64,000 nucleotides of DNA from the NCBI RefSeq assembly GCF_009914755.1, contig NC_060937.1, one strand, 5' to 3'. Made by a program: the position numbers and the translations under genes. The notes below the pieces were generated by a model that was not told where the DNA came from, ran no database searches, and was given only the letters and a program-made list of their open reading frames with translations. Origin of the DNA: the human T2T-CHM13v2.0 reference genome, Homo sapiens. Positions 1,073-44,895 of this stretch are shown one piece after another; the stretch's first letter is position 1, and every line of letters starts with the position of its first letter.

Positions 1073-1871
1073 GTGCCTACACCACAAGAGCCCTGGGTTT
1101 CAGGAACAAAACTGGGTGACTGTTTGGCAGACACCAAGCTAGCTGCATAAGTTTTTTTTTGTTTTGTTTTGTTTTGTTTTTGTACCTCAGTGGTTCCTGG
1201 AATGCCAGCGAGACAGAACTCTTCACTCCCCTGGAAAGGGGCTGAAGCCAGGGAGTCAAGTGGTCTTGCTCAGTGGATCCCACCCCCACAGAGCTCAGCA
1301 AGATAAGATCCACTGGCTTGAAATTCTCACTGCCAGCACAGCAGTCTAAAGTTGACCTGGGATGCTTGAACTTTGTGGGGGGAGGGGCATCCATCATTAC
1401 TGAGGCTTGAGTAGGTGGTTTTCCTCTCACAGTGTAAACAAAGTTACTGGGAAGTTCAGACTGGGCAGAGCCCACCACAGCACCGCAAAGCCGTGGTAGC
1501 CAGACTACCGCCCTAGATTCCTCCTCTCTGGGCAGGACATTGCTAAAAGAAAGGCAGCAGCCCCAGTCAGGGGCTTATGGATAAAACTCCCATCTTTCTG
1601 GGACAGAGCACCTGGGGGAAGGGGCAGTTGTGGGTGCAGCTTCAACAGACTTAAACTTTCCTGCCTGTCAGCTTTGAAGAGAGCAGTGGATCTCCCAGCA
1701 CAATGCTCAAGCTCTGATAAAGGACAGATGGCCTCCTCAAGTGTGTCCCTGATCCCTGAGCCTCCTGATGGAGAGACACCTCCCAGCAGGGATCGACAGA
1801 CAACTTATACAGGAGAGCTCCAGCTGGCATCTGTTGGGTGCCCCTCTGGGACAAAACTTCCAGAGGAAGGA

Positions 1872-1970
1872 GCAGGCAGCAATCTTTGCTGTTCTGCAGC
1901 CTCTGGTGGTGCTTCCCAAGCAGACAGCAATCTTTGCTGTTCTGCAGCCTCCGATGGTGCTACCCAGGCA
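1872..1970 (+). repeat. 48-bp tandem duplication in the L1 5'UTR
   Basis: cagcaatctttgctgttctgcagcct begins at 1877 and again at 1925. Confidence 0.9.
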
Positions 1971-2151
1971 ACAGGGTCTGGAGTGGACGCCCAGTAAACT
2001 GCAGTAGACCTGCAGAAGAGGGGCCTGTTAGAAGAAAAACTAACAAACAGAAGCAATAGCATCAACATCAAAAAAAAAAGAGTTTGACCAAACAAAAACT
2101 CCATTCAAAGGTCACCAACAGCAAAGACCAAAGGTAGATAAATCCACGAAG

Positions 2152-3168
2152 ATGAGGAAAAACCAGTGCAAAAGGGCTGAAAATTCCAAAAACCAGAATG
2201 CCTCTTCTCCAATGGATCACAGCTCCTCACCAGCAAGGGAACAAAACTGGATGGAGAATGAGTTTGACTAATTGACAGAAGTAGGCTTCAGGAGCTGGGT
2301 AATAACAAACTCCTCTGAGCTAAAGGAGCATGTTCTAACCCAATGCAAGGAAGCTAAGAACGTTGATAAAAGGTTTGAGGAATTGCTAACTAGAATAACC
2401 AGTTTAGAGAAGAACATAAATGACCTGATGGAGCTGAAAAACACAGCACAAGAATGTCATGGAGCATGCACAAGTATCAATAGCTGAATTGATCAAGTAG
2501 AAGAAAGGATATCAGAGATTAAAGATCAATTTAATGAAATAAAGTGTGAAGACAAGATTAGAGAAAAAAGAATGAAAAGGAATGAAAAAAAGCCTCCAAG
2601 AAACATAGGCCTATGTAGAAAGAGCAAACCTACATTTGATTGGTGTACCTGAAAGTGATGGAGAGAATGGAACCAAGTTGGAAAACACACTTCAGGATAG
2701 TATGCAGGAGAACTTCCCCAACCTAGCAAGATAGGCCAACATTCAAATTCAGGAAATACAGAGAACACCACAAAGATACTCCTTGAGAAGAGCAACCCCA
2801 AGTCACATAGTCGTCAGATTCACCAAGGTTGAAATGAGGAAAAAATGTTAAGGGTAGCCAGAGAGAAAGGTTGGATTGCCCACAAACCCATCAGACTAAC
2901 AGCAGATCTCTCTGCATAAATCCTAACAGCCAGAAGAGAGTGGGGGCCAATGTTCAACATTCTTAAAGAAAAGAATTTTCAACCCAGAATTTTATATCCA
3001 GCCAAACTAAGCTTCATAGTGGAAGGATAAATAAAATCGTTTACAGAAAAGCAAATGCTGAGGAATTTTGTCACCACCAAGCCTGCCTTACAAGAGCTCC
3101 TGAAGGAAGCACTACATATGGAAAGGAAAAACTGGTATGAACTACTGCAAAAACAAACCAAAATGTAA
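2152..3168 (+). pseudogene. L1 ORF1p remnant (stops and frameshifts)
   Basis: ATG at 2152 (atgaggaaaaaccag). Peptide TEVGFRSWVITNSSELKEHVLTQCKEAKN. Frame is broken. Confidence 0.9.
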
Positions 3169-3231
3169 AGACCATCAACATTATGAAGATACTGCATCAA
3201 CTAATGGGCAAAATACCCAGCTAGCATCATA

Positions 3232-6200
3232 ATGACAGGATCAAATTCACACATAATGGTATTAACCGTAAATGTAAATGAGCCAAATGCCCCAATTAAA
3301 AGACACAGACTGGCAAATTGGATAAAGAGTCAAGACCCATTGGTGTGCTGTATTTAGGAGACCTATCTCATGTGCAAAGACACACATAGGCTCAAAATAA
3401 AGGGATGGAGGAATATTTATCAAGCAAATGGAAAGCAAAACAAAGCAGGAGTTGCAATCCTAGTCTCTGATAAAACAGATTTTAAACCAACAAAGATAAA
3501 AGGGAAAGAAGCGCATTACATAATGGTAAAGAGATCAATGCAACAAGAAGAGCTATACAGAAGCACCCAGATTCATAAAGCAAGTTCTTAGAGACTTACA
3601 AAGAGACTTAGACTCCAACACAATAATAGTGGGTGTCGTTAACACCTCACTGTAAATATTAGACAGATCAATGAGACAGAAAATTAACAAAGATATTCAG
3701 GACTTGAACTCAGCTCTGGACCAAGCGGACCTAATAGACATCTATGGAACTCTCCACCTCAAATCAACAGAATATACATTCTTCACAGCATCACATCACA
3801 CTTATTCTAAAATTGACCACATAATTGGAAGTAAAACACTACTCAGCAAATGCAAAATAATGGAAATTATAACAATCTTTCAGACCACAGTGCAATCAAG
3901 TTGGAACTCAGGATTAAGAAACTCACTCAAAACCACACAACTATATGGAAACTAAACAACCTGCTCCTGACTGACTACTGAGTAAATAACGAAATTAAGG
4001 CAAAGTAAATAAGTTCTTTGAAACCAGTGAGAACAGAGACACAATGTATCGGAATCTCTGAGACACACCTAAAGCAGTGTTTAGAGTGAAACTTATGGCA
4101 ATAAATGCCCACAGGAGAAAGCAGGAAAGATCTACAATCGACACCCTAACATCACAATTAAAAGAACTAGAGAAGCAAGAGCAAACAAGTTCAAAAGCTA
4201 ACAGAAGACAAGAAATAATCAAGATTACAGCAGAACTGAAGGACATAGACACGAAAAACCCTTCAAAAAATCAATGAATCCCAGAGCTGGTTTTTTGAAA
4301 GAATTAACAAAATACATAGATCGCTAACCAGACTAATAAAGAAGAAAAGAGAGAAGAATCAAATAGACACAAGAAAAATGATAAAGGGGAGATCACTACT
4401 GATCCCCCAGAAATACAAATTACTGTCAGGGAATATTATAAACACCTCTACACAAACAAACTAGAAAATCTAGAAGAAATGGATAAGTTCCTGGACACAT
4501 ACACCCTCCCGAGACTAAATCAGGAAGAAGTTGAATCCCTGAATAGACCAATAATAAGTTCTGAAATTGAGGTAGTAATTAATAGCCCACCATCTAAAGA
4601 AAGCTCAGGACCAGATGGATTCACAGCCAGATTCTTCCAGTGGTACAAGGAAGAGCTGGTACCATTCCTTCTGAAACTGTTCCAAACAGAAAAAGAGGAA
4701 CTCCTCACTAACTCATTTTATGAGGCTAGCATAATTCTTATACCAAACCTGGCAGAGACACAATAAAAAAGAAAATTTCAGGCCAATATCCCTGATGAAC
4801 ATCGATGCAGAAATCCTCAATAAAATATTGGCAAACTCAACCCAGCAGCACATTGAAAAGCTTATCCACCATGATCAAGTTGGCGTCATCCCTGGGAGGC
4901 AAGCCTGGTTCAATGTACGCAAATCAATAGATGTAATCCATGACATAAAGAGAACCAGTGACAAAAACCACGTGATTATCTCAATAGAGGCAGAAAAGGC
5001 CTTTGATAAGATTCAACATCACTTCATGGTAAAAACACTCAATAAACTAGGTACTGATGGAAGATATCTCAAAATAAGAGCTATTTTTATGATAAACCCA
5101 CAGCCAATATCATACTGAATGGGTAAAAGCTGGAAGCACCCCCTTTGAAAACCGGCACAAGACAAGGTTGCCCTCTCTCACCACTCCTAGTCAACATACT
5201 ATTGGAAGTTCTGGCCAGGGAAATCAGGCAAGAGAAAGAAATAAACGGTATTGAAATAAGAAGAGAGGAAGTCAAATTATCTCTGTTTGCAGATGATATG
5301 ATTATATATTTAGAAAACCCCATTGTCTCAGCCCCAAATCTCCTTAAGCTGATAAGCAACTTTAGCATAAAGTCTCATGATACAAAATCAATGTGCAAAA
5401 ATCACAAGCATTCCTGTACACCAATAATAGACAGAGAGTCAAATCATGAGCAAACTCCCATTCACAATTACTACAAAGGGAATAAAATACCTAGGAATAT
5501 AACTTACAAGGGATGTGAAGGACCCCTTCAAGGAGAACTACAACCACTGCTCAAGGAAATAAGAGAGGACACAAACAAATGGAAAAACATTCCATACTCA
5601 TGGACAGGAAGAATCAATATCATGAAAATGGCCATACTGCCCAAAGTAATGTATAGATTCAATGCTATTCCCATCAAACTACCATTGACTTTCTTCACAG
5701 AATTGTAAAAAAAAACTTTAAATTTCATATGGAACCAAAAAAGAGCCCATATAGCCAAGAAAATCCTAAGCAAAATAGAACAAACCTGGAGACATCACAT
5801 TATCTGACTTCAAACTGTACTGAAAGGCTATAGTAACCAAAACAGCATAGTACTGATACCCAAACAGATATATAGACCAATGGAACAGAACAGAGGCCTC
5901 AGAAATAACACCACACATCTACAACCATCTGATCTTTGACAAATCTGACAAAAACAAGAGATGGGGAAAGGATTCCCTATTTAATAAATGTTGTTGGGAA
6001 AACTGGCTAGCCATATGCAGAAAACTGAAACTGGACCCCTTCCTTACACCTTATACAGAAATTAACTCAAGCTGGGTTAAAAATTTAAACGTAAGACCTA
6101 AATCCATAAAAACCCTAGAAGAAAACCAGGCAATACTATGTAGGACATAGGCATGAGCAAAGACTTCATGACTAAAATACCAAAAGCAATGGCAACAAAA

Positions 6201-7000
6201 GCCAAAATTGACAAATGGGATCTAATTAAACTAAAGAGCTTCTGTACAGGAAAAGAAACTATCATCAGAATGAATAGGCATAGAGAACGGGAGAAAATTT
6301 TTGCAATCTATGCATCTGACAAAGGGCTAATATCCAGAATCTACAAGGAACTTAAACAAATTTATGAGAAAAAAACAACTCAATCAAAAAGTGGGTGAAG
6401 GACATGAACAGACACTTCTCAAAGGAAGACATTTAGGCAGCCAACAAACATATGAAAAAGAGCTCATCACTGGTCATTAGAGAAATGCAAATCAAAACCA
6501 CAATGAGATACCATCTCATGCCAGTTATAATAGCAGTCATTAACAAGTCAGGAAATAACAGATGCTGGAGAGGATGTGGAGAAATAGGAACGCTTTTGCA
6601 CTGATGGTGGGAATGTAAATTCATTCAACCATTGTGGAAAATAGTATAGCAATTCCTCAAGAATCTATAATCAGAAATACCATTTGATCCGGCAATCCCA
6701 TTACTGGGTATATACCCAAAGGATTATAAATCATTCTACTATAAAGACACATGCACACGTATGTTTATTCCAGCACTATTCACAATAGCAAAGACTTGGA
6801 ACCAACCCAAATGCCCATCAATATAGACTGGATAAAGAAAATTTGGCACATATACACCATGGAATACTATGAAGCCATAAAAAAATGAGTTCATGTCCTT
6901 TGCAGGGACATGGATGAAGCTGGAAACCATCATTCTCAGCAAACTAACCCAGGAACAGAAAACCAAACACCGCATGTTTTCACTCATAAGTTGGAGTTGT
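3232..7000 (+). pseudogene. L1 ORF2p (APE endonuclease / reverse transcriptase) remnant, disrupted
   Basis: Start atgacaggatcaaattcacac. Fragments [17 protein letters not shown] and LFADDMI lie in many separate ORFs. Confidence 0.92.
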
Positions 7001-9369
7001 ACTATGAGAACATACGGGCACAGGGAGGGGAACATCACACACCAGAGCCTGTCGGTGGGTGGAGGGGCAAGGGAGGGATAGCATTAGGAGAAATACCTAA
7101 TGTAGATGACAGGTTGATGGGTGTAGCATACCACCATGGCACGTGTATACCTATGTAACAAACCTGCACATTCTGCACATGTATCCCAGAACTTAAAGTA
7201 TAATTAAAATAAAAAATAAACCCTGATATGCTACTTTTTGTCAGAATAATGCTAATAATACACAGGAAATACCTTAGTTATTTCTAAGCAGCAGACCCTG
7301 AGGCAAGTATAAAGGTAAGGATTTGATTTATTTAGAGGATGCAATTCAAGAGCAGTTAAGGGAAGCAAGGAAAGATGAAAAAGAATGGAATGCATTGCAT
7401 TACTGTGCTGGTAACTGCTCCTCAATCTACTGCAGAGGCATAGAAAGTCCCTCAACAGACCTGTGGTATGCAGGAATTCACCAAAGTTTATGGAAGAGTA
7501 GTTAACAGAAGGGAAAAATGGGGAGGTATTTATCTGCTTTACTGTCTGTCATAAGAAGTTTCCTATTGTTTCATTCTCACCCCATAGGGACAAACTCCCC
7601 TTCACTTTACAGGCTGCCTAGTCCACTCACATGGAGGCTACTTGTGAAGCCAGATAACGCACACAGATATGCTGAATTCTTGGAGTCTGGCAGCAAAGGA
7701 GGAGTTTGCTATTTCTGAGGAGCTAATCCATGAGGAGAAAGGAGACAGTTAACAGCACCTAAGAGAGTAAGAAAACCCAAAAGGTTTTTATTCTTTATGT
7801 TTGATTGCAGTACATACAAAGAGTTTAGCTTATTAGCTTTTCAATGATTACCTAATATTAGCAAATCACTCATAGTAATTCATTTCAGGAACAAATTAGA
7901 ATAAAGCAATGCATCTATATCTCTTGAAACAACAACAACAAAAAGAATTTGGAAAAACTTGGTAGCCTTTCTGCATTTTAAACAAAAGTCTATATAAAGA
8001 AAAATATAACAAAAGTATATAAACATTATGTTAAAACTACTACAAACCTATAGTAATTAACTTAATAAATATTAATGGTATAAAGCAGGCTGTACAAATT
8101 GAATTGTTTTTGAAGTTATATCTAACAATAATACAAGAAAATGAAGTAATATAAATCAGATATAAGGATTATTTTAAATTTTGTATATTGTTACATACCT
8201 ATAAAAATCTCTTAGAAATATTTTGAAGTTTATATGAAGAAAAGCTATTACTCATATTTAAAATTTATAAGACATTATATATCATAGCAGAATACATAAT
8301 AAATATGTAGAAACCAATAACTTTCCTCAATGGTAGTAATAATCAGTTAGCAATAAAAAAGAAAAAATAAAATTTAGACCACCACATTAAGGGCTAGCAG
8401 TTTATAGAGTAAGATGCTGTTCAGTGTGTTCAAGGCACAGGGACAAAAGTAACTATAATCAAAAGAATAACATTTTTCACCAATCTGCTAAGATGAAAAT
8501 TGTTGCATTTATTTAGATTTTGTTTACAGTGTTGCACCTAAACAACTTCTTCATGAGGGTGAATGTACCTATCGAACCTTTTTGGTTTTTTTTTTTATAG
8601 CATTAAGTGTATTAACATCATTTTAAACAGGTGAACACAAGTATAGTGCTTTTTGTTGACCTATACTAACACATGAATACTGCAGAGCAATCCTAGGGTA
8701 GGATGGGGGAAAGGAAATAGAGAAATGCCTTCACTGCTCTCTGTGAAAAATGAATGTCTTCAACGTGATATGTTTTGCTAATTTTTTAAATTTTATAGGC
8801 CAGAAGAAAAGCTTAGATATTTTCATAATATTTGTTATTGACCAAGTAGGGATTCAAGTAGTTAGGATAGTAGCCATAATACCAATTAATTGATAAAGCC
8901 AATAAATTAATACTGCTAAAATTCTTCTTTTAGAGTTTGTTTAGGCATTCCTAATTTCCACTTCTACCCTCTCAAATATCTGGATGTTTTCACATTCTTA
9001 AATAAGGAGCCAGTAGAAAACCAGAAGCTTGCACCATTGAGTATAGAAAAAAGAGTATTAAGAAATGAAAAAAATTAAAAGCACATATTAAAAGGGTCAC
9101 AGCATAATCCCTAGAAGTGTTTAATTTTGAGCACAACTGTACCCTGAAGACCCCAGGAAATGATACGCTTTTTCCCACCAGCAACACAGTCACTTGAGTA
9201 TTTCTTTCACACCTGCATTAGAAAAAAAGACAGGGCATACCGCTTAATATTGTTGTTATCTAAACCACACGTGGTAGTTTATATTTTGCACAGAAAACCC
9301 AAATAATAAGTCAAATTTATTTTTACAAAAGTAATTTATTTGTTCTACGAATAAAAGTAACTGTTGATC

Positions 9370-10656: not shown

Positions 10657-10674
10657 TAGAGCTATGACATTTTC
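10657..10674. repeat. Target-site duplication, left copy (tagagctatgacattttc)
   Basis: Identical to 20493-20510. Confidence 0.95.
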
Positions 10675-10904
10675 TTTTTTTTCTTTTTTTTATTATTATA
10701 CTTTAAGTTCTAAGGTACATGTGCATAACGTTCAGATTTGTTACATATGTATACATGTGCCATGTTGGTGTGCTGCACACATTAACTTGTCATTTACATT
10801 AGGTATATCTCCTAATGCTATCCCTCCCCCCTCCCCCCTCCCCCCACCCAACAACAGGCCCATTGTGCGATTTTCCCCTTCCTGTGTCCAAGTGTTCTCA
10901 TTGT

Positions 10905-14700
<3,796 letters not shown>

Positions 14701-14763
14701 TATGATGTTAGCTGGTTATTTTGCTCGTCAGTTGATGCAGTTTCTTCCTAGCCTTGACGGTCT

Positions 14764-15779
14764 TTACAATTTGGCATGTTTTTGCAGTGGCTGGTACCGG
14801 TTGTTCCTTTCCATGTTTAGTGCTTCCTTCAGGAGCTCTTGTAGGGCAGGCCTGGTGGTGACAAAATCGCTCAGCATTTGCTTGTCTGTAAAGTATTTTA
14901 TTTCTCCTTCACTTATGAAGCTTAGTTTGGCTGGATATGAAATTCTGGGTTGAAAATTCTTTTTTTAAGAATGTTGAATATTGGCCCCCACTCTCTTCTG
15001 GCTTGTGGAGTTTCTGCTGAGAGATCAGCTGTTAGTCTGATGGTCTTCCCTTTGTGGGTAACCCGACGTTTCTCTCTGGCTGACCTTAATATTTTTTCCT
15101 TCATTTCAACTTTGGTGAATCTGACAATTATGTGTCTTGGAGTTACTCTTCTTGAGGAGTATCTTGGTGGTGGTCTCTGTATTTTCTGAATTTGAATGTT
15201 GGCCTGCCTTGCTAGCTTGGGTAAGTTCTCCTGGATAATATACCACAGAGTGTTTTCCAACGTGGTTCCATTCTCCCCGTTACTATCAGGTGCACCAATC
15301 AGATGTAGATTTGGTCTTTTCACATAGTCCCATATTTCCTGGAATCTCTGTTCATTTCTTTTTATACTTTTTTCTCTGAAACTCTCTTTTCGCTTCAATT
15401 TATTCGTTTGACTTTCCATCCCTGAAACCCTTTCTTTCACTTGATCGAATCAGCTACTGAAGCTTCTGCATGCGTCACGTAGTTCTCATGCCATGGTTTT
15501 CAGCTCTATCAGGTCCTTTAAGGACTTCTTTGCATTGGTTATTCTAGTTAGCCATTCATCTAATCTTTTTTCAAGGTTTTTAACTTCTTTGAGTTGGGTT
15601 CAAACTTCCTCCTTTAGCGCGGAGAAGTTTGATCATCTGTAGCCTTCTTCTCTCAACTCGTCAAAGTCATTGTCCGTCCAGCTTTGTTCCGTTGATGGTG
15701 AGGAGCTGCATTCCTTTGGAGGAGGAGAGGCGCACTGATTTTTAGAATTTTTAGTTTTTCTGCTCTGTTTTTTCCACAT
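14764..15779 (-). pseudogene. L1 ORF1p remnant
   Basis: MWKKQSRK...ELREEGYR* has a premature stop at 15633. Downstream ORF contains EIWDYVKRPNL...RLTADLSAET. Confidence 0.92.
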
Positions 15780-15824
15780 CTTTGTGGTTTTATCTACGGG
15801 GGGGGGTCCCCTGTAGGGGGGGAT

Positions 15825-16230
15825 ACCCATCACAGGGAGTGCAGGCACCCCCCGCGAGGCAGGGATTGAGAGCCAGCCCCTCTTCCCCCCCGGCTCTTAG
15901 GACCCCCCTCGCACTGGGGGTAGGCATCTCCCGCGAGGTGGGGACTGAGAGCCAGCCCCTCTTCCCCCCCTGGCTCTTGGGACCCCCATCGTAGGGTGGG
16001 AGGCACCGCCCGCAAGGCGGGAACTGAGTGCCAGCCGGTCTCCCCACCCCCGGCTCTTGGGACCCCCATCACAGGAGCGGGAGGCACCCCCCGTGAGGGT
16101 GGGGACTGAGAGCCAGCCCCTCCTCTGCCAATGACTGTTAGGAAACCCATCGCAGGGTGGGGAAGCACCCCCTGTGAGGCGGGAACTGAGAGCCCGCCCC
16201 TCTTCCCCCCTAGCGTAGGACCCCCATCGC
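15825..16230. repeat. GC-rich ~79-bp tandem repeat, block A (~5 units), SATR1/SATR2-like
   Basis: Unit is approximately ggacccccatcgcagggggggaggcaccccccgcgaggcggggactgagagccagcccctcttccccccctggctctta. Confidence 0.92.
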
Positions 16231-16852
16231 GGATCCTAAGATCTTTAGGACCCACCTGGAGGACTGTGGGTATTAGGTGTCCAAGAAGAAAGCTCAAATC
16301 TGTCAACGGCAGGTACCTTACTAGGGATTTACTCTCCCACAGGGTTCCGAAGGCAGCCCGGGAACAGAAAGAAAGCAGGTTATTTGCAATCTACCGGAGC
16401 CTAAGGGCATAAGGCAGGTGAGAGAATTCTTAGGAGCTGTGGGGTTTTGTAGACTGTGGATCCCAAACTTTGCAGTGTTAGCCAAGACTTTGTATGAGGT
16501 CACAAAGAGGGCAGGGACCGGGAACCTTTGGAATGGGGATCCCAACAACAGCAAGTCTGTCATGAGTTAAAGGAAAAACTTCTGGCAGCCCCAGCCCTGG
16601 GGCTACCCGATCTGACAAAGCCTTTTCCATTGTATGCGTCAGAGAGAGAAAAGATGGCAGCTGGACTTTTAACCGAAACTGTGGGGCCCTATCTGAGGCC
16701 GGTGGCCTACATCTCTAAACAACTAGACAGGGTTTCTAAAGGATGGCCCCTTTGTTTGAGGGCCGTGGCAGCAACTGCCCTGCTAGTAAAAGAAGCAAAT
16801 AAGCTGATTCTTGGGCAAAACCTGAACATAAAGGCCCCCCCATTTTGTGGTG
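16231..16852 (+). pseudogene. pol: Class I (gammaretroviral, HERV-E-like) pol fragment, copy 1: RT thumb and connection region
   Basis: Peptides REFLGAVGFCRLWIPNF, APALGLPDLTKPF, RPVAYISKQLD and GWPLCLRAVAATALLV. Contains stops and a frameshift, with no YxDD motif and no LTR. Confidence 0.92.
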
Positions 16853-18320
16853 GCTGAGATCCAGCCCCTCTTCCACCCCTGGCTCTTGGGACCCCCATCA
16901 CAGTGTGGGGAGGCACCCCCCACGAGGCGGGGACTGAGAGCCAGCTCCTCTTCCTCCACTGGCACTTGCGACCCCCATCACAGCGTGGGGGAGGCAACCC
17001 CACTAGGCGGGTACTGAGAGCCAGCTCTTCTTGCCCCCTGGCTCTTGGGACCCTCATTGCAAGGGTGGGAGGCAACCCGTGCGAGGTGGGGAGTGCGAGC
17101 CTGCCCCACTTCCCCCCGGCTCTTAGCACCCCCATCGCAGGGGGGGAGGCAATCCCTGCAAGGTGGGGACTGCGAGCCTGCCCCCTTCCCTCCCTGGCTC
17201 TTAGCACCCCTTTCGCAGGGGGGGAGGCACCCCTCGCGAGGCGGGGATGGAGAGCGAGCCCCTCTTCCCCCCCTTGCTCTTAGGACCCGCATCGCTGGGG
17301 GCGGAGGCACCCACTGCGAGGCAGGGACTGAGAGCCAGCCCCTCTTACCCCCCTGGCTCTTGGGACCCCCATCGTGGGGGGGAGGCACCCCCCGTGAGGC
17401 GGGGACTCAGAGCCAACCCCTCTTCCCCCCCGGCTCTCGGGACCCCCATCGCAGTGGGGGGAGGCACCCCCAGCGAGGCGGGGACTAAGAGCCAGCCCCT
17501 CTTCCCCCCCGACTCTTAGGATCCCCATCACACCGGGGGGAGGCACCCCCCATGAGGTAGGGACTGAGAGCCACCCCTCTTCCCCCCCTGGCTCTTAGGA
17601 CCCCCATCGCAGGGGTGGGAGACACCACCCATGAGGCGGGGACTGAGAGCCAGCCCCTCTTCCCCCCCTGGCTCTTGGGACCCCCATCGCAGGTGGGGAG
17701 GCAGCCCCAGCGAGGCGGGGACTCAGAGCCAACCCCTCTTCCCCCCCTGGCTCTTTGGACCCCCATCGCAGGGGGGGGAGGCACCCCCAGCGAGGCGGGC
17801 ACTAAGAGCCAGCCCCTCTTCCCCCCCTGACTCTTAGGACCCCCATCGCACTGGGGGGAGGCACCCCCCACGAGGCAGGGACTGAGAGCCAGCCCCTCTT
17901 CCCCCCCTGGCTCTTAGGACCCCCATTGCAGGGGTGGGAGGCACCCCCCGCGAGGCGGGGACTGACAGCCAGCCCCTCTCCCCCCCCAGGCTCTTGGGAC
18001 CCCCATCGCAGGGGGGGATGCAACCCCCACGACGCGGGGACTGAGAGCCAGTCCCTCTTCCCCCCCTGGCTCTTAGGATCCCCATCGCACCAGGGGGAGC
18101 CACCCCCCGCGAGGCAGGGACTGAGAGCCAGCCACTTTTCCCCCCTTGACTCTTAGGACCCCCATCGCACTGGGGGGAGGCACCCCCGCGAGGCAGGGAC
18201 TCAGCCAGCCCCTCTTCCCCCCCCAGGCTCTTGGGACCCCCATCGCAGTGGGGGAGGCACCCCCGCAAGGTGGGGACTGAGAGCCAGCCCGTCTTCCCCC
18301 CTGGCTTAGGACCCCCATCG
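16853..18320. repeat. GC-rich ~79-bp tandem repeat, block B (~18-19 units)
   Basis: The cccccatc motif recurs at about 17601, 17681, 17760, 17840, 17920, 18000 and 18080 (period 79-80). Confidence 0.95.
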
Positions 18321-18942
18321 TGGATCCTAAGATCCTTAGGACCCACCTGGAGGACTGTGGGTATCAGGTGTCCAAGAAGAAAGCTCAAATCTGCCGATGG
18401 CAGGTACCTTACTTGGGATTTCCTATCCGACAGGGGTCCGAACGCAGCTGGGGAACAGAAAGAAAGCAGGTTATTTGCAATCTACCGGAGCTTAAGGGCA
18501 GAAGGCAGGTGAGAGAATTCTTAGGAGCTGTGGGGTTTTGTAGCCTGTGGATCCCAAACTTTGCATTACTAGCCAAGCCTTTGTATGAGGTCACAAAGGG
18601 GGCAGGGACCGGGAACCTTTGGAATGGGGATCCCAACAACAGCCAGTCTTTCATGAGTTAAAGGAAAAACTTCTGGCCGCCCCAGCCCTGGGGCTACCCG
18701 ATCTGACAAAGTCTTTGCCATTGAATGCGTCAGAGAGAGAAAAGATGGCAGTTGGACTTTTAACCCAAACTGTGGGGCCCTGTCTGAGGCCGGTGGTCTA
18801 CGTCTCTAAACAACTACCCAAGGTTTCTAAAGGATGGCCCCCCTGTTTGAGGGCCGTGGTAGCAACTGCCCCGCTAGTACAAGAAGCAAATAAGCTGACT
18901 CTTGGGCAAAACCTGAACATAAAGTCCACCCATTTTGTGGTA
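18321..18942 (+). pseudogene. pol: HERV-E-like pol fragment, copy 2
   Basis: ORFs 18320-18661 (HLEDCGYQVSKKKAQIC...YLGF) and 18619-19059 (ELKEKLLAAPALGLPD...GWPPCLRA). Same endpoints as copy 1. Confidence 0.92.
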
Positions 18943-19771
18943 GCTGAGAGCCAGCCCCTCTTCCCCCCCTGCCTCTTAGGATCCCCATCGCAGCGTGGTG
19001 AGGCACCCTCCGTGAGGCGGGGACTGAGAGCCAGCCCCTTTTCCCCCCCTGGCTCTTAGGACCCCCATCGCACCGGGCGGAGGCTCCCCCGCGAGGCAGG
19101 GACTGAGAGCCAGCCCCTCTTCCCCCCCAGGCTGTTGGGACCCCCATCGCAGGTGCAGGAGGCACCCCCCGTGAGGTGTGGACTGAGAGCCAGCACCTCT
19201 TCCACCCCTGGCTTTTAGGACCCCCATCGCAGGTGGGGGAGGCACCCTCCACGATGCAGCAATTGAGAACCAGCCACTCTTCCCCCACTGGCTCTTAGGA
19301 CCCCCAATGCCGGGGGGGGAGGCACCCCCTGTGAGGCGGGGACTGAGAGCCAGCCCCTCTTCCCCCCCTGGCTCTTGGGACCCCCATAGCAGAGGGGGGA
19401 GGCACCTCCCGCGAGGCCGGGACTGAGAGGCAGCCACTCTCCCCCCCTGGCTCTTGGGACCCCCATTGAAGGGTGGGGAGGCACCGCCCTCTAGGCGGGA
19501 ACTGAGACCCAGCCCGTCTTTCCACCCTGGCTCTTAGGACCCCCATTGCAGGAACGGGAGGCAACCCCCGCTAGAGTGGGGACTGAAAGCCAGCCCGTCT
19601 TCCGCCCCTGGCTCTTAGGACCCCCATCAGAGTGGGGGGAGGCACCCCCCTCCGAGGCGGGGACTGAGAACCTGCCCCTCTTCCCCCCTGGCTCTTAGGA
19701 CCCCCATTGCAGGGTGGGGATGCACCCCCCGCGAGGCGGGTACTGAGAGCCAGCCCCTCTTCTCCCCTGGC
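18943..19771. repeat. GC-rich ~79-bp tandem repeat, block C (~10-11 units)
   Basis: Same unit as blocks A and B. The last unit ends in cccctggc at the L1 junction. Confidence 0.93.
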
Positions 19772-20080
19772 CTTGTGAGGTGTCATTCTGCCCCTACTGG
19801 GGGGTTCCTCCCAGTTAGCCTACTCGGAGTTCAAGGACCCAGTTGAGGAGGCAGTCTGTTGATGCTCAGATCTCAAGCTGCGTGCTGGGAGAACCACCAC
19901 TCTCTTCCAACTGTCATACAGGGACTTTTAAGTCTGCAGAGGTTTCTGCTGCCTTTTGTTCGGCTATGCCCTACCCCAAGAGGTGGACTCTACAGAGGCA
20001 GGCAGGCCTTCTTGAGCTGCAGTGGGCTTCACCCAGTTCAAGCTTAGCAGCCGCTTTGTTTACCTATTCAAGCCTCAGCA

Positions 20081-20458
20081 ATGGCAGATGCTCCTCCCCC
20101 AGTCTCGCTGCCATGTTTCAGTTTGATCTCAGATTGCTGTGCTAGCAATCAGCAAGGCTCCGTGGGCATAGGACCCTCCGAGCCAGGCACAGGATATAAT
20201 CTCCTGGTCTGCCGTTTGCTAAGACTGTCAGAAAAGCACAGTATTAGGGTGGGAGTGACCCGATTTTCCAGGTGCTGTTTTTCCTCCCTTCCCTTGGCTA
20301 GGAAAGGGAATTCCCTGACCCCTTGCACTTCCCGGGTGAGGCGATGCCTTGCCCTGCTTCGGCTCATGCTCGGTGTGCTGCACCCACTGTCCTGCACCCA
20401 CTGTCCAACAATCCCCAGTGAGATGAACCTGGTACCTCAGTTGGAAAGGGAGCTGTAG
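20081..20458 (+). CDS. ORF0: L1 antisense ORF0 homologue, open and extended to 125 aa (expression unknown)
   Basis: MADAPPPVSLPCFSLISDCCASNQQGSVGIGPSEPG...IRVGVTRFSRC matches the primate ORF0 peptide and lies antisense in the 5'UTR. Confidence 0.7.
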   Translation: MADAPPPVSLPCFSLISDCCASNQQGSVGIGPSEPGTGYNLLVCRLLRLSEKHSIRVGVTRFSRCCFSSLPLARKGNSLTPCTSRVRRCLALLRLMLGVLHPLSCTHCPTIPSEMNLVPQLEREL

Positions 20459-20477
20459 ACTGGAGCTGTTCCTATTC

Positions 20478-20487
20478 GGCCATCTTG
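20478..20487 (-). promoter_or_regulatory. YY1 site of the L1 internal sense promoter
   Basis: Reverse complement CAAGATGGCC at the L1 5' end. Confidence 0.8.
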
Positions 20488-20492
20488 CGCCC

Positions 20493-20510
20493 TAGAGCTA
20501 TGACATTTTC
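20493..20510. repeat. Target-site duplication, right copy (tagagctatgacattttc)
   Basis: Identical to 10657-10674. The following aa gives TT/GAAAA on the - strand, an L1 endonuclease-type site. Confidence 0.95.
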
Positions 20511-38081: not shown

Positions 38082-38692
38082 TTTTTTTTTTTAATTTTAC
38101 TTTAAGTTCTGGGATACATGTGCAGAATGTGCAGGTTTGTTACATAGGTAAATGTGTGCCACGGAGGTTTGGTGCACCTGTCAACCTGTCACCTAGGTAT
38201 TGAGCCCCGCATGCATTACCTATTTGTCCTGATGCTCTCCCTCCCCTCCCCTTCCCCTGACAGGTCCCAGTGTGTGTGTTGTTCCTGTCCCTGTGTCCAT
38301 TTGTTCTCATTGTCCAGTTCCCACTTATGAGTGAGAACATGTGGCGTTTGGTTTTCTGTTCTTGTGTTTGTTGAGGATGATGGCTTCCAGCTTTATCTAT
38401 GTCCCTGCAAAGGATATGATCTCGTTCCTTTTTATGGCTGCATAGTATTCCATGGTATATATGTACCACATTTTCTTTATCCAGTCTATCATCCATAGGC
38501 ATTTGGGTTGGTTCCATGTCTTTGCTATTGTGAATAATGCTGCAATAAACATACATGTGCATGTATCTTTATAATAGAATGATTTATAATCCTTTGGGTA
38601 TATACCCAATAATGGGATTGCTGGGTCAAATGGCATTTCTGGTTCCTTGAGGAATCGCCACACTGTCTTTCACAATAGTTGAACTAATTTGT
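38082..38692 (-). mobile_element. 5'-truncated L1 3' end (older L1PA)
   Basis: T tail, 3'UTR, and ORF2 C-terminus FDPAIPLLGIYPK...YTMEYYAAIK. Confidence 0.9.
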
Positions 38693-43171: not shown

Positions 43172-44895
43172 CATTTTATTTTTAACTTTTAGGTTCATGG
43201 ATACAAATCAGGTTTGTTACGTAGATAAACTTGTATTATGGGGGTTTGTTGCACATATTATTTGACCATCTAGGTATTAAGCCTAGTAACCGTTAGTTAT
43301 TTTTTCTGATCTTCTCCCTCCCCTCACTCTCCACCCTCTGAAAGGCCCCAGTGTGTGTTGTTCCCCTCTGTTTATTTGTTCTCCTCATTTAGCTCCCACT
43401 TGTAAATGAGAACATGTGGCATTTAATTTTCTGTTCCTGTGTTAGTTTGCTAAAGATAATGGCCTCCAGCTCCATCCATGTCCCTGAAAAGACATGACCT
43501 CATTCTTTTTCATGGCAGCATCCTATTCTGTGGTGCATATATACTACATTTTGTTTATTCAGACTATCATTGATGGGCATTTAGGTTGATTCCATGTATT
43601 GGCTATTGTGAATAGTGCTTCAATGAACATACACATGCGTGTGTTTTTATAATAGAATGATTTATATTCCTTTGGGTATATACTCAGCAATAGAATTGCT
43701 GGGTTGTATGGTATTTCTGTCTTTAGGTCTTTGAGGAATTGACACACTGACTTCCACAATGGTTGAACTAATTTACACTCCCACCAACAGTGTATATATG
43801 TTCCTTTTTCTCCACAACCTTGCCAGTATTTGTTATTTTTTTACTTTTTATCAATAGCCATTATGACTAGTGTGAGATGGTATCTCATTGTGGTGTTGAT
43901 TTGTGTTTCTCTAATGACCAGTGATATTAAGCTGTTTTTTCGTATGATTGTTGGCAGCATGTATGTCTTCTTTTGAGAAGTGCCTGTTCATGTGCTTTGC
44001 CCACTTTTTAATAGGGTTTTTATTTTTTTTTTTGGTTTTTGTTTTTAAATTTATTTATTTATTATTATTATACTTTAAGTTTTAGGGTATACGTGCACAA
44101 TGTGCAGGTTAGTTACATATGTATACATGTGCCATGCTGGTGCGCTGCACCCACCAATTCGTCATCTAGCATTAGGTATATCTCCCAATGCTATCCCTCC
44201 CCCCTCCCCCCAACCCACAACAGTCCCCAGAGTGTGATGTTCCTCTTCCTGTGTCCATGTGTTCTCATTGTTCAATTCCCACCTATGAGTGAGAATATGA
44301 GGTGTTTGGTTTTTTATTCTTGCGATAGTTTACTGAGAATGATGATTTCCAATTTCATCCATGTCCCTACAAAGGACATGAACTCATCATTTTTTATGGC
44401 TGCATAGTATTCCATGGTGTATATGTGCCACATTTTCTTAATCCAGTCTATCATTGTTGGACATTTGGGTTACTTCCAAGTCTTTGCTATTGTGAATAAT
44501 GCCACAATAAACATAAGTGTGCCTGTGTCTTTATAGCAGCATGATTTATAGTCCTTTGGGTATATACCCAGTAATGGGATGGCTGGGTCAAATAGTTTTC
44601 TTGTAGATTTGTTTAAGTTCCTTACAGATGTTGGATATTAGACCTTTGTCAGATGCATAGATTGTAAAAAATGTTCACACATTCTGTAGGTTGTCTGCTT
44701 ATTCTGTCGATAGTTTCTTTTGCTGTGCAGCTTTTTAGTTTAATTTGATTCCATTTGTCAATTTTTACTTTTGTTGCAAATTGCTTTTGGCATCTTGGTC
44801 ATAAAACCTTTGCCTATACCCATGTCCTGAATGGTATTGCCTAGGTTGGTGTCTAGGGTGTTTTGTAATTTGGGGTTTTACATTTAAGTCTTTAT
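43172..44895 (-). mobile_element. 5'-truncated older L1PA (about L1PA13-16), interrupted by a younger L1
   Basis: 3'UTR and ORF2 tail at 43172-44016, resuming collinearly at ~44594 (ttcttgtagatttgtttaagttcc). Confidence 0.88.
44017..44593 (-). mobile_element. Nested young 5'-truncated L1 (L1PA2/3-like)
   Basis: Has its own T-rich tail and 3' end (tattattatactttaagttttagggta) and is close to the young L1 consensus. Confidence 0.9.

What the first reader, a model, noticed from the sequence alone, without database searches (positions are those of the whole stretch)
16231..19771. A retroviral RT fragment built into a higher-order satellite unit
Seen: the two ~620-bp pol pieces have the same start (cccccatcgYggatcctaagatcYttaggacccacctgg) and end (cattttgtggtRgctgaga, running into the unit's ctgagagccagcccc). 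They share the same frameshift near ggcagggaccgggaacc and the same shortened repeat unit just upstream (tagcgtagga / tggcttagga). The spacing is 2090 bp, with variable monomer numbers (~5, ~18, ~10). A manual count gives about 45 differences in about 620 bp (~7%). Inference: one capture of an LTR-less pol piece by the satellite was followed by amplification of the (pol + VNTR) unit, probably in a larger donor array elsewhere.
Basis: partly seen in the sequence, partly recalled or inferred. Interest (0 to 1): 0.75.

Follow-up and report, generated by a model that had tools for sequence, protein, structure and literature searches.

The report
Wandering satellite carrying a retroviral scrap
A 4-kb block of GC-rich tandem repeat holding two broken scraps of an old retroviral gene sits inside a LINE-1 element on human chromosome 13; it is one of at least 13 related arrays on five chromosomes, likely born once inside an ape-specific duplicated element and likely spread by DNA-break repair.

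Summary
In detail: two ~600-bp pol pieces, same ends, 44 differences in 621 bases, 2091 bp apart, between 5.5, 18.5 and 10.5 GC-rich 79/80-mers. The same satellite-to-pol junction occurs 55 times at 13 loci on chr3, 7, 9, 12 and 13, so one capture followed by amplification is well supported. The satellite did not pick up a free fragment. At chr3:8.67 Mb the unit sits inside an LTR-less HERV-E of a Xiao element with both parental junctions kept, the likely birthplace structure. The 80-mer is a GC-rich relative of the AT-rich 76-mer flanking that HERV-E (19 A/T-versus-G/C differences, 0 the other way). The shared frameshift predates capture. The two copies are not resolved as sisters. Pol pieces in the dispersed arrays look about twice as diverged and richer in transversions. 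The parts are known; I did not find this composite described, but key papers were unreadable.

The parts
10657..10674 (.). left copy of the 18-bp target-site duplication of the host L1
   Evidence: 16-letter motif at 10658 and 20494; the printed context extends it by one base each side
10675..15797 (-). host L1PA body (poly(A), ORF2, ORF1, last bases of the 5' UTR), frames broken
   Evidence: best kin 94% over 11000-12100
15798..16230 (+). GC-rich 79/80-mer array A (5.5 units); its first ~30 bases are scrambled junction sequence
16231..16252 (+). 22-base linker A, absent from parental HERV-E copies, largely an inverted copy of satellite sequence
16253..16853 (+). pol piece A: RT thumb/connection region, starts after the catalytic DD codons, frameshifted, with stops
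16256..16336 (-). first exon of the predicted lncRNA LOC124907021; its splice donor spans the linker-pol junction
   Evidence: hub annotation; donor context
16854..18321 (+). GC-rich array B (18.5 units, ~70% GC); carries the RefSeq 'collagen-like' pseudogene model, likely an artefact
18322..18343 (+). linker B
18344..18943 (+). pol piece B, 7.1% different from A, same ends and same frame break
18944..19765 (+). GC-rich array C (10.5 units)
19766..19772 (.). about 7 bases of microhomology shared by the monomer and the L1 5' UTR at the right junction
19766..20492 (-). first 727 bases of the host L1 5' UTR; about 240 L1 bases are missing where the block sits
20493..20510 (.). right copy of the L1 target-site duplication

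Best explanation
The block is a 3,968-base non-coding piece of a dispersed satellite-HERV-E composite family, likely born once inside a Xiao-type SATR-HERV-E-SATR element and likely copied into this L1 during repair of a DNA break. SHOWN: the anatomy; the family of 13 loci; the chr3:8.66-8.68 Mb structure satellite / HERV-E upstream / pol-[insert-pol]x3 / HERV-E downstream / satellite; the loss of ~240 L1 bases with no target duplication and ~7 bases of microhomology at one end. INFERRED steps: (1) an AT-rich 76-mer became a 76%-GC 79/80-mer by GC-biased conversion in a homogenising array; (2) a template switch in an LTR-less HERV-E duplicated 600 bp of pol around a satellite insert and left a 22-base inverted linker; (3) unequal exchange multiplied the unit; (4) a chr13/chr7 branch lost the AT-rich part; (5) slices cut at arbitrary points were copied to new sites by microhomology-guided, template-switching repair, helped by the hairpin- and G4-prone monomer. 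The pol piece is a passenger: no catalytic site, frame already broken. The insertion is younger than the host L1 and the Xiao family, so likely under ~25 million years.
For: 55 junctions at 13 loci, control 0. 11 of 11 parental copies lack the linker and run on into HERV-E; the first chr3 copy has the parental start and a satellite end, the last has the linker and runs 1.5 kb into parental sequence at 93%. Parent positions match Xiao/DA loci of PMC2700803 (whole text read). 76-mer versus 80-mer: 54 of 80 columns identical, 19 versus 0 directional differences, score 69 against a best of 34 in 60 shuffles; an intermediate 78-mer lies at chr13:45.685 Mb. Linker matches the reverse complement of the monomer/AT-satellite junction at up to 18 of 20 bases. 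3 of 3 intact L1 kin have 240-251 bases where the window has the block. 0 of 7 junction pairs show a target duplication; 2 of 7 end in a clear inverted monomer piece. Array ends differ at every site, and the chr7 pair starts and ends inside pol. The flank is single-copy; no second L1 with this junction among 40 scored of 1188 candidates. 27 chr13/chr7 copies form one side of a branch, 100/94.
Against: No donor was identified: best collinear matches of the window's arrays elsewhere are only 82-87.5%. The first chr3 copy groups with the parents, not with the other three chr3 copies, so chr3 may be a recombinant or converted copy rather than the literal birthplace. Single origin of all linker copies has weak tree support (98/75). 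The empty site could be inferred only for this window; the other six junction pairs include duplicated pairs and possibly secondary truncations. The scrambled left-junction bases do not align clearly to the monomer (scores 19 reverse, 17 forward). The monomer hairpin is modest (z -1.9, 8 of 200 shuffles as good). The pol pieces show no GC bias, so GC-biased conversion did not reach them or is not the cause. No ape genome was available for dating.
Confidence: 0.72

Rival explanations
1. The composite moved as RNA, SVA/LAVA-like by L1 machinery, or inside the host L1's own transcript.
For: The host is a full-length L1 with intact TSD; a predicted antisense transcript starts in pol A (hub annotation); the 240 missing L1 bases are bounded by GT and AG on the L1 sense strand if the edge is shifted one base within the microhomology (read); a run of 12 A lies at one end of the chr13:63.06 Mb array.
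Against: No TSD or tail at the block's own ends here or in the other 6 junction pairs; ends are not conserved between loci; no second L1 with the junction among 40 scored; the spliced-L1 donors named in the passages of PMC5860796 that I saw are at position 97, not ~730-760.
Confidence: 0.08
2. One (array-pol-array) unit was inserted here and duplicated locally soon after; the 7% difference is age plus a raised mutation rate, with no two-unit donor.
For: Sisterhood is not rejected (AU p 0.33); neither copy has a close partner in another array (nearest 6.0% and 6.8%); both sit on long branches at the base of the chr13/chr7 radiation.
Against: The best tree does not join them; their 7.1% distance is no smaller than distances to other loci; multi-unit arrays are the rule in the family.
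Confidence: 0.3
3. One reading: a free-standing GC satellite captured a loose pol fragment and the unit later invaded Xiao elements.
For: Several arrays lie outside Xiao elements (chr7, chr12, chr13:44.6 Mb, this window); a GC-rich SATR1 variant is reported as abundant in macaque (10.1101/2025.08.04.668424, section 7 part 1), so a GC monomer may be older than the capture.
Against: chr3 keeps both parental junctions in order, as expected from duplication in place; the chr3/chr12 unit carries AT-rich satellite related to that flanking the HERV-E (74% to the chr3 upstream array).
Confidence: 0.12
4. Two independent retroviral insertions, or an assembly artefact.
For: The copies differ by 7% and are not resolved as sisters.
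Against: Identical cut points and a shared non-viral linker in 55 places; no LTR or TSD; a false duplication would give near-identical copies.
Confidence: 0.02

Closest known systems
Xiao / DA core duplicons and their SATR-HERVE-SATR ('SES') flank (PMC2700803, whole text; PMC5088589, passages and supplement hits)
   Same: The pol piece is 91-94% identical to the LTR-less HERV copies at Xiao/DA positions; the chr3, chr13:45.7 and chr13:63 Mb arrays lie in or next to such satellite/OR7E context.
   Different: The window block is 4 kb, has no AT-rich satellite, no OR7E core and no TSD, and holds only 600 bp of pol in tandem. The texts I read do not describe a GC-rich pol-bearing sub-unit.
SATR1v, the GC-rich variant of SATR1 (variant reported in Hoyt et al., bioRxiv 2021.07.12.451456, passages; described in macaque, bioRxiv 2025.08.04.668424, section 7 part 1)
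   Same: GC-rich (76% here, 81% in macaque), mixed with AT-rich SATR1-type arrays, in one form next to a ~600-bp AT-rich array (589 bp in macaque).
   Different: Identity of this monomer with the SATR1v consensus could not be tested; the macaque core unit as described holds no HERV-E pol piece.
T2T composite repeats such as ajax-teucer / TELO_Comp, D4Z4-LSAU (Hoyt et al. preprint, passages)
   Same: A variable short-monomer array alternating with a fixed-length spacer, in tandem, at several chromosomes, spread without retrotransposition.
   Different: The spacer is a retroviral pol piece; loci are small interstitial insertions; the unit here has two components, not three or more.
SVA and LAVA composite retrotransposons (recalled; named in passages)
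   Same: GC-rich VNTR joined to an endogenous-retrovirus fragment, hominoid age.
   Different: No TSD, no poly(A), no fixed ends, tandem units: not retrotransposed.
Truncated '51-1' HERV-E class bounded by 72-76-bp repeats (Steele, Martin and colleagues, 1980s; recalled only, search did not find it)
   Same: Would correspond to the parental LTR-less gag-pol flanked by 76-mers.
   Different: As recalled it concerns the parent, not the pol + GC-array derivative.

Membership tests
Xiao/DA element | SATR-HERV-E-SATR flanks around an OR7E core, ~30 kb or more | tested here: not met
   window block is 3,968 bases of GC monomer and pol only; the chr3 source locus does show satellite-HERV-satellite
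Xiao/DA element | 4-9-bp target-site duplication | tested here: not met
   240-base target loss, no duplication
Xiao/DA element | pol sequence descends from the SES HERV-E | tested here: met
   91-94% identity to 11 parental copies at Xiao/DA positions, shared frame break; the name HERV-E comes from PMC2700803 by position, no Dfam scan was available
SATR1v satellite | GC-rich, in-phase relative of the AT-rich SATR-type monomer | tested here: met
   54 of 80 columns, GC 0.76 versus 0.50
SATR1v satellite | match to the deposited SATR1v consensus | not testable with these tools
   no Dfam library; supplements not readable
composite repeat (Hoyt et al.) | tandem units spread without retrotransposition | tested here: met
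composite repeat (Hoyt et al.) | unit of three or more repeat types | tested here: inconclusive
   chr3/chr12 unit has three (pol, AT satellite, GC satellite); the window unit has two
composite repeat (Hoyt et al.) | listed among the 19 annotated composites | not testable with these tools
   supplementary tables not readable; not named in the 12 of 44 passages shown
SVA/LAVA-type composite retrotransposon | TSD, poly(A) tail, conserved termini | tested here: not met
   0 of 7 junction pairs with TSD; ends differ
higher-order repeat (alpha-satellite sense) | fixed number and order of monomers per unit | tested here: not met
   monomer stretches between pol pieces from under 1 to about 18 units
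provirus | LTRs, gag-pol-env, catalytic RT motif | tested here: not met
   600-bp pieces only, starting about 65 bases after the DD codons seen in the parents

The most novel reading that the evidence does not exclude
This is an undescribed, enzyme-free 'mobile satellite' of apes: a GC-converted, hairpin/G4-forming SATR derivative that seeds arbitrary slices of itself into DNA breaks across chromosomes and mutates what it carries. Its pol passengers, aligned base for base with parental copies outside the arrays, record about twice the substitutions and a transversion-rich spectrum (kappa 1.9 versus 2.8-3.9), which would make them a built-in, datable reporter of error-prone repair synthesis in satellite arrays and a clue to why SATR arrays mark Xiao/DA rearrangement breakpoints.
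Probability: 0.3. Interest if true: 0.65.

Novelty: new variant of a known kind. Interest (0 to 1): 0.42.

Why it matters
The origin and spread of Xiao/DA core duplicons is open (PMC2700803 proposes HERV-E-assisted retrotransposition without evidence; PMC5088589 maps breakpoints to SATR arrays). Here a 4-kb derivative sits in a target whose empty state can be read from L1 kin, and it shows deletion plus microhomology, not retrotransposition. The family also gives a clean natural comparison: the same 600 bp inside and outside a GC-rich array, for measuring local mutation rate and spectrum, and a monomer series (50%, 67%, 76% GC) for one-way GC conversion. For annotation: the block is unmasked in NCBI's file and likely produces a false 'collagen-like' pseudogene model. 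No coding or viral function is indicated.

Tried and rejected
Shared frameshift as proof of capture: rejected, parents have it. Low transition/transversion ratio as unique to the arrays: singleton counts did not separate chr13 copies from parents (Fisher p 1.0); only the tree-based kappa did, so that result is not secure. GC bias in the pol pieces: none. chr9 arrays as pol-free donors older than the capture: rejected, 2 of 2 checked carry linker and pol. Locus as part of a large segmental duplication: flank is single-copy. L1 retrotransposed with the block: no second copy among 40 scored. Splicing of the L1 RNA as cause of the 240-base loss: GT/AG edges are likely chance. PRDM9-like 13-mer (motif recalled): 0 matches on either strand. 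CpG island: observed/expected 0.33, not met. Naming a donor array: best matches 82-87.5%, not diagnostic. Row dropped: chr13:62,959,330 copy is truncated and its extract ran into flank; it is in the tree and counts, and left out (rates).

Full report
Observation. The window (human T2T-CHM13 chr13:79.92-79.98 Mb by the hub's annotation) holds at 15798-19765 three arrays of a 79/80-bp monomer (5.5, 18.5, 10.5 units; about 70% GC) separated by two pol pieces. These align over 622 columns with 577 identities, 44 mismatches and one gap, start 2091 bases apart and share both ends, the shortened monomer before them and a frame break. The 3' open piece of copy B matches Pfam RT_RNaseH_2 and residues 316-421 of a solved retroviral RT chain; the 5' piece matched no Pfam family. 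The parents show the catalytic DD codons about 65 bases before the cut point, so the piece is thumb/connection region only.

The host. The block lies inside a minus-strand, full-length L1PA with an 18-base target duplication (10657 and 20493). Three intact L1 kin have 240, 247 and 251 bases of 5' UTR where the window has the block. The block has no duplication or tail of its own; the right junction shares about 7 bases between monomer and L1, the left has about 30 scrambled bases. The DNA beyond the L1 is single-copy apart from weak old-repeat matches, and none of 40 scored candidates (of 1188) carries the L1-satellite junction. The L1's best kin are 94% identical near its 3' end and have the long 5' UTR. 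PMC5860796 (passages) places the 129-bp ZNF93-binding stretch of L1PA3/PA4 after an ACCTCAC branch point, which lies at 19775, so the lost 240 bases likely include it. I infer an L1PA4-6 age (that paper gives about 27 million years for L1PA6); the subfamily was not formally assigned.

The family. A search with piece A gave 55 matches from 40 scored of 286 candidates. They split in two: copies matching from base 1, in arrays, and copies matching from base 22, in continuous retroviral sequence. The second group lies at chr2:71.0 and 159.3, chr3:128.4 and 132.8, chr4:8.9, chr8:12.4, chr9:102.4 and 102.9, chr11:67.7 and chr13:40.6 Mb, positions that match the Xiao/DA loci of PMC2700803 (whole text read), whose flank is 'SATR-HERVE-SATR' and whose origin is put at 25-18 million years. 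The junction pattern occurs 55 times (control 0) at 13 loci: chr3 (3), chr7 (12, 8), chr9 (1, 1, 1), chr12 (3, 6), chr13 (5, 4, 4, 5 and the 2 here). The chr7 pair and the chr12 pair share flanks at 96-98% and are duplicates of one insertion each.

Origin. chr3:8.662-8.679 Mb reads 63-mer and 76-mer AT-rich satellite, HERV upstream sequence (93% to a parent over 1.5 kb), pol, three times [insert, linker, pol], HERV downstream sequence (93% over 1.5 kb), then 76-mer and 63-mer satellite. The first pol has the parental start, the last the parental end. This is what a 600-bp duplication around an insert, later multiplied, would leave. The insert is one part-monomer, about 600 bases of AT-rich 76-mer and a GC array; chr12 has the same unit, chr9:77.05 Mb a related AT stretch (87%), while chr13 and chr7 units lack it and share a changed end motif. 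The linker matches the reverse complement of the monomer/AT-satellite junction at 18 of 20 bases in two of four inserts, a template-switch signature. Against a literal birthplace: the first chr3 copy groups with the parents and the other three do not. The frame break is in 4 of 4 parents translated.

The monomer. The window's 79-mer aligns in phase with the chr3 76-mer at 54 of 80 columns (score 69; best of 60 shuffles 34). Of 21 substitutions, 19 have A/T in the 76-mer and G/C in the 79-mer, none the reverse; a 78-mer of 67% GC at chr13:45.685 Mb is intermediate. Direction (AT to GC) and cause (GC-biased conversion) are inferred; PMC10172114 (abstract) reports such bias in segmental duplications. 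A GC-rich SATR1 variant, SATR1v, is known and is likely this monomer or a parallel product; untested. The names SATR1/SATR2 for the AT-rich units rest on those papers and on recall, not on a library scan. Each monomer folds to one hairpin (z -1.9) and the minus strand has 18 G4-like runs.

Spread. Of 7 junction pairs examined none shows a target duplication; two end in an inverted monomer piece (25 of 26 bases at chr12:31.0 Mb; 13 bases at chr13:63.07 Mb); the chr7 insertion begins and ends inside pol. Arbitrary ends, deletion, microhomology and fold-backs fit templated insertion during break repair; this is inference, and only in this window is the empty site known. In trees of 46 and 47 copies the 27 chr13/chr7 copies stand apart (100/94); the two window copies sit on long branches in an unresolved fan, not joined, and forcing them together is not rejected (AU p 0.33). 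No donor array stands out. Import of two already different units and early local duplication both remain.

An extra signal. With 11 parents as outgroup, all 30 chr7/12/13 copies carry more own changes than each of three chr3 copies (90 of 90 non-independent comparisons; chr13/chr7 20-40 versus 10-17). Kappa is 1.92 for 27 chr13/chr7 copies, 2.81 for the parents, 3.6-3.9 for flanking HERV sequence and for the host L1 with kin; fixing 2.81 on the array copies costs p 7e-5, the reverse test p 0.017. Singleton counts showed no difference, and conversion between chr3 and parents could shorten the comparison branch, so this is suggestive only.

Function. No coding role is plausible. The predicted lncRNA LOC124907021 starts in pol A on the minus strand and uses a CAG/GTGGGT donor that exists only because of the linker (parents read GTGCCG or similar). 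The 'collagen-like' pseudogene model covers array B, whose minus frames are 22-25% Gly and 12-15% Pro with 3-7 stops: likely an artefact.

Known versus new. Parent elements, satellites and the class of composite repeats are described. Verdict: real, well-resolved anatomy, a new variant of a known kind, interest 0.42.

Noticed in passing
window 16256-16336 (-): The splice donor of the predicted lncRNA LOC124907021 is formed across the linker-pol junction; the same junction exists at 55 places, so other arrays may donate antisense first exons to neighbouring DNA.
   Followed up: partly
window 15797/19766: The 240 lost L1 bases likely include the 129-bp ZNF93 repressor-binding stretch, so this L1 promoter may have lost that repression; a RefSeq enhancer covers 15530-16530.
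   Followed up: partly
window 17485-18354 (-): RefSeq 'collagen alpha-1(III) chain-like' pseudogene model lies on the GC satellite; likely a Gly/Pro-rich translation artefact.
   Followed up: partly
L019 330-900 and L039 600-1160 (chr13:63.06 and 62.96 Mb): The array is joined to an olfactory-receptor-like pseudogene piece (OR7E by recall and by the Xiao papers) after a run of 12 A; the two loci are inverted copies 99.6% identical in that flank while their pol pieces differ by several percent.
   Followed up: partly
L037 2091-2287 (chr13:45.686 Mb): One pol piece has an internal 97-base tandem duplication; chr7 arrays hold many 98-base and chr12 arrays 170-base truncated pol pieces, i.e. secondary shorter units.
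   Followed up: no
L035 about 1240-1340 and L037 1175-1465: A short stretch of intermediate 78-mers (67% GC) sits in the upstream satellite of the Xiao-type flank at both chr3 and chr13:45.685 Mb, a possible seed of the GC monomer.
   Followed up: partly
chr9:140.35, chr11:71.53, chr4:9.76 Mb: GC-monomer arrays with no linker match; not examined.
   Followed up: no
window about 20450-20470: The host L1 lacks about 35 bases near its 5' end relative to all three kin.
   Followed up: no
window about 1870-7220 (+), 38082-38690 and 43209-44604 (-): Further, older L1 pieces in the window.
   Followed up: no
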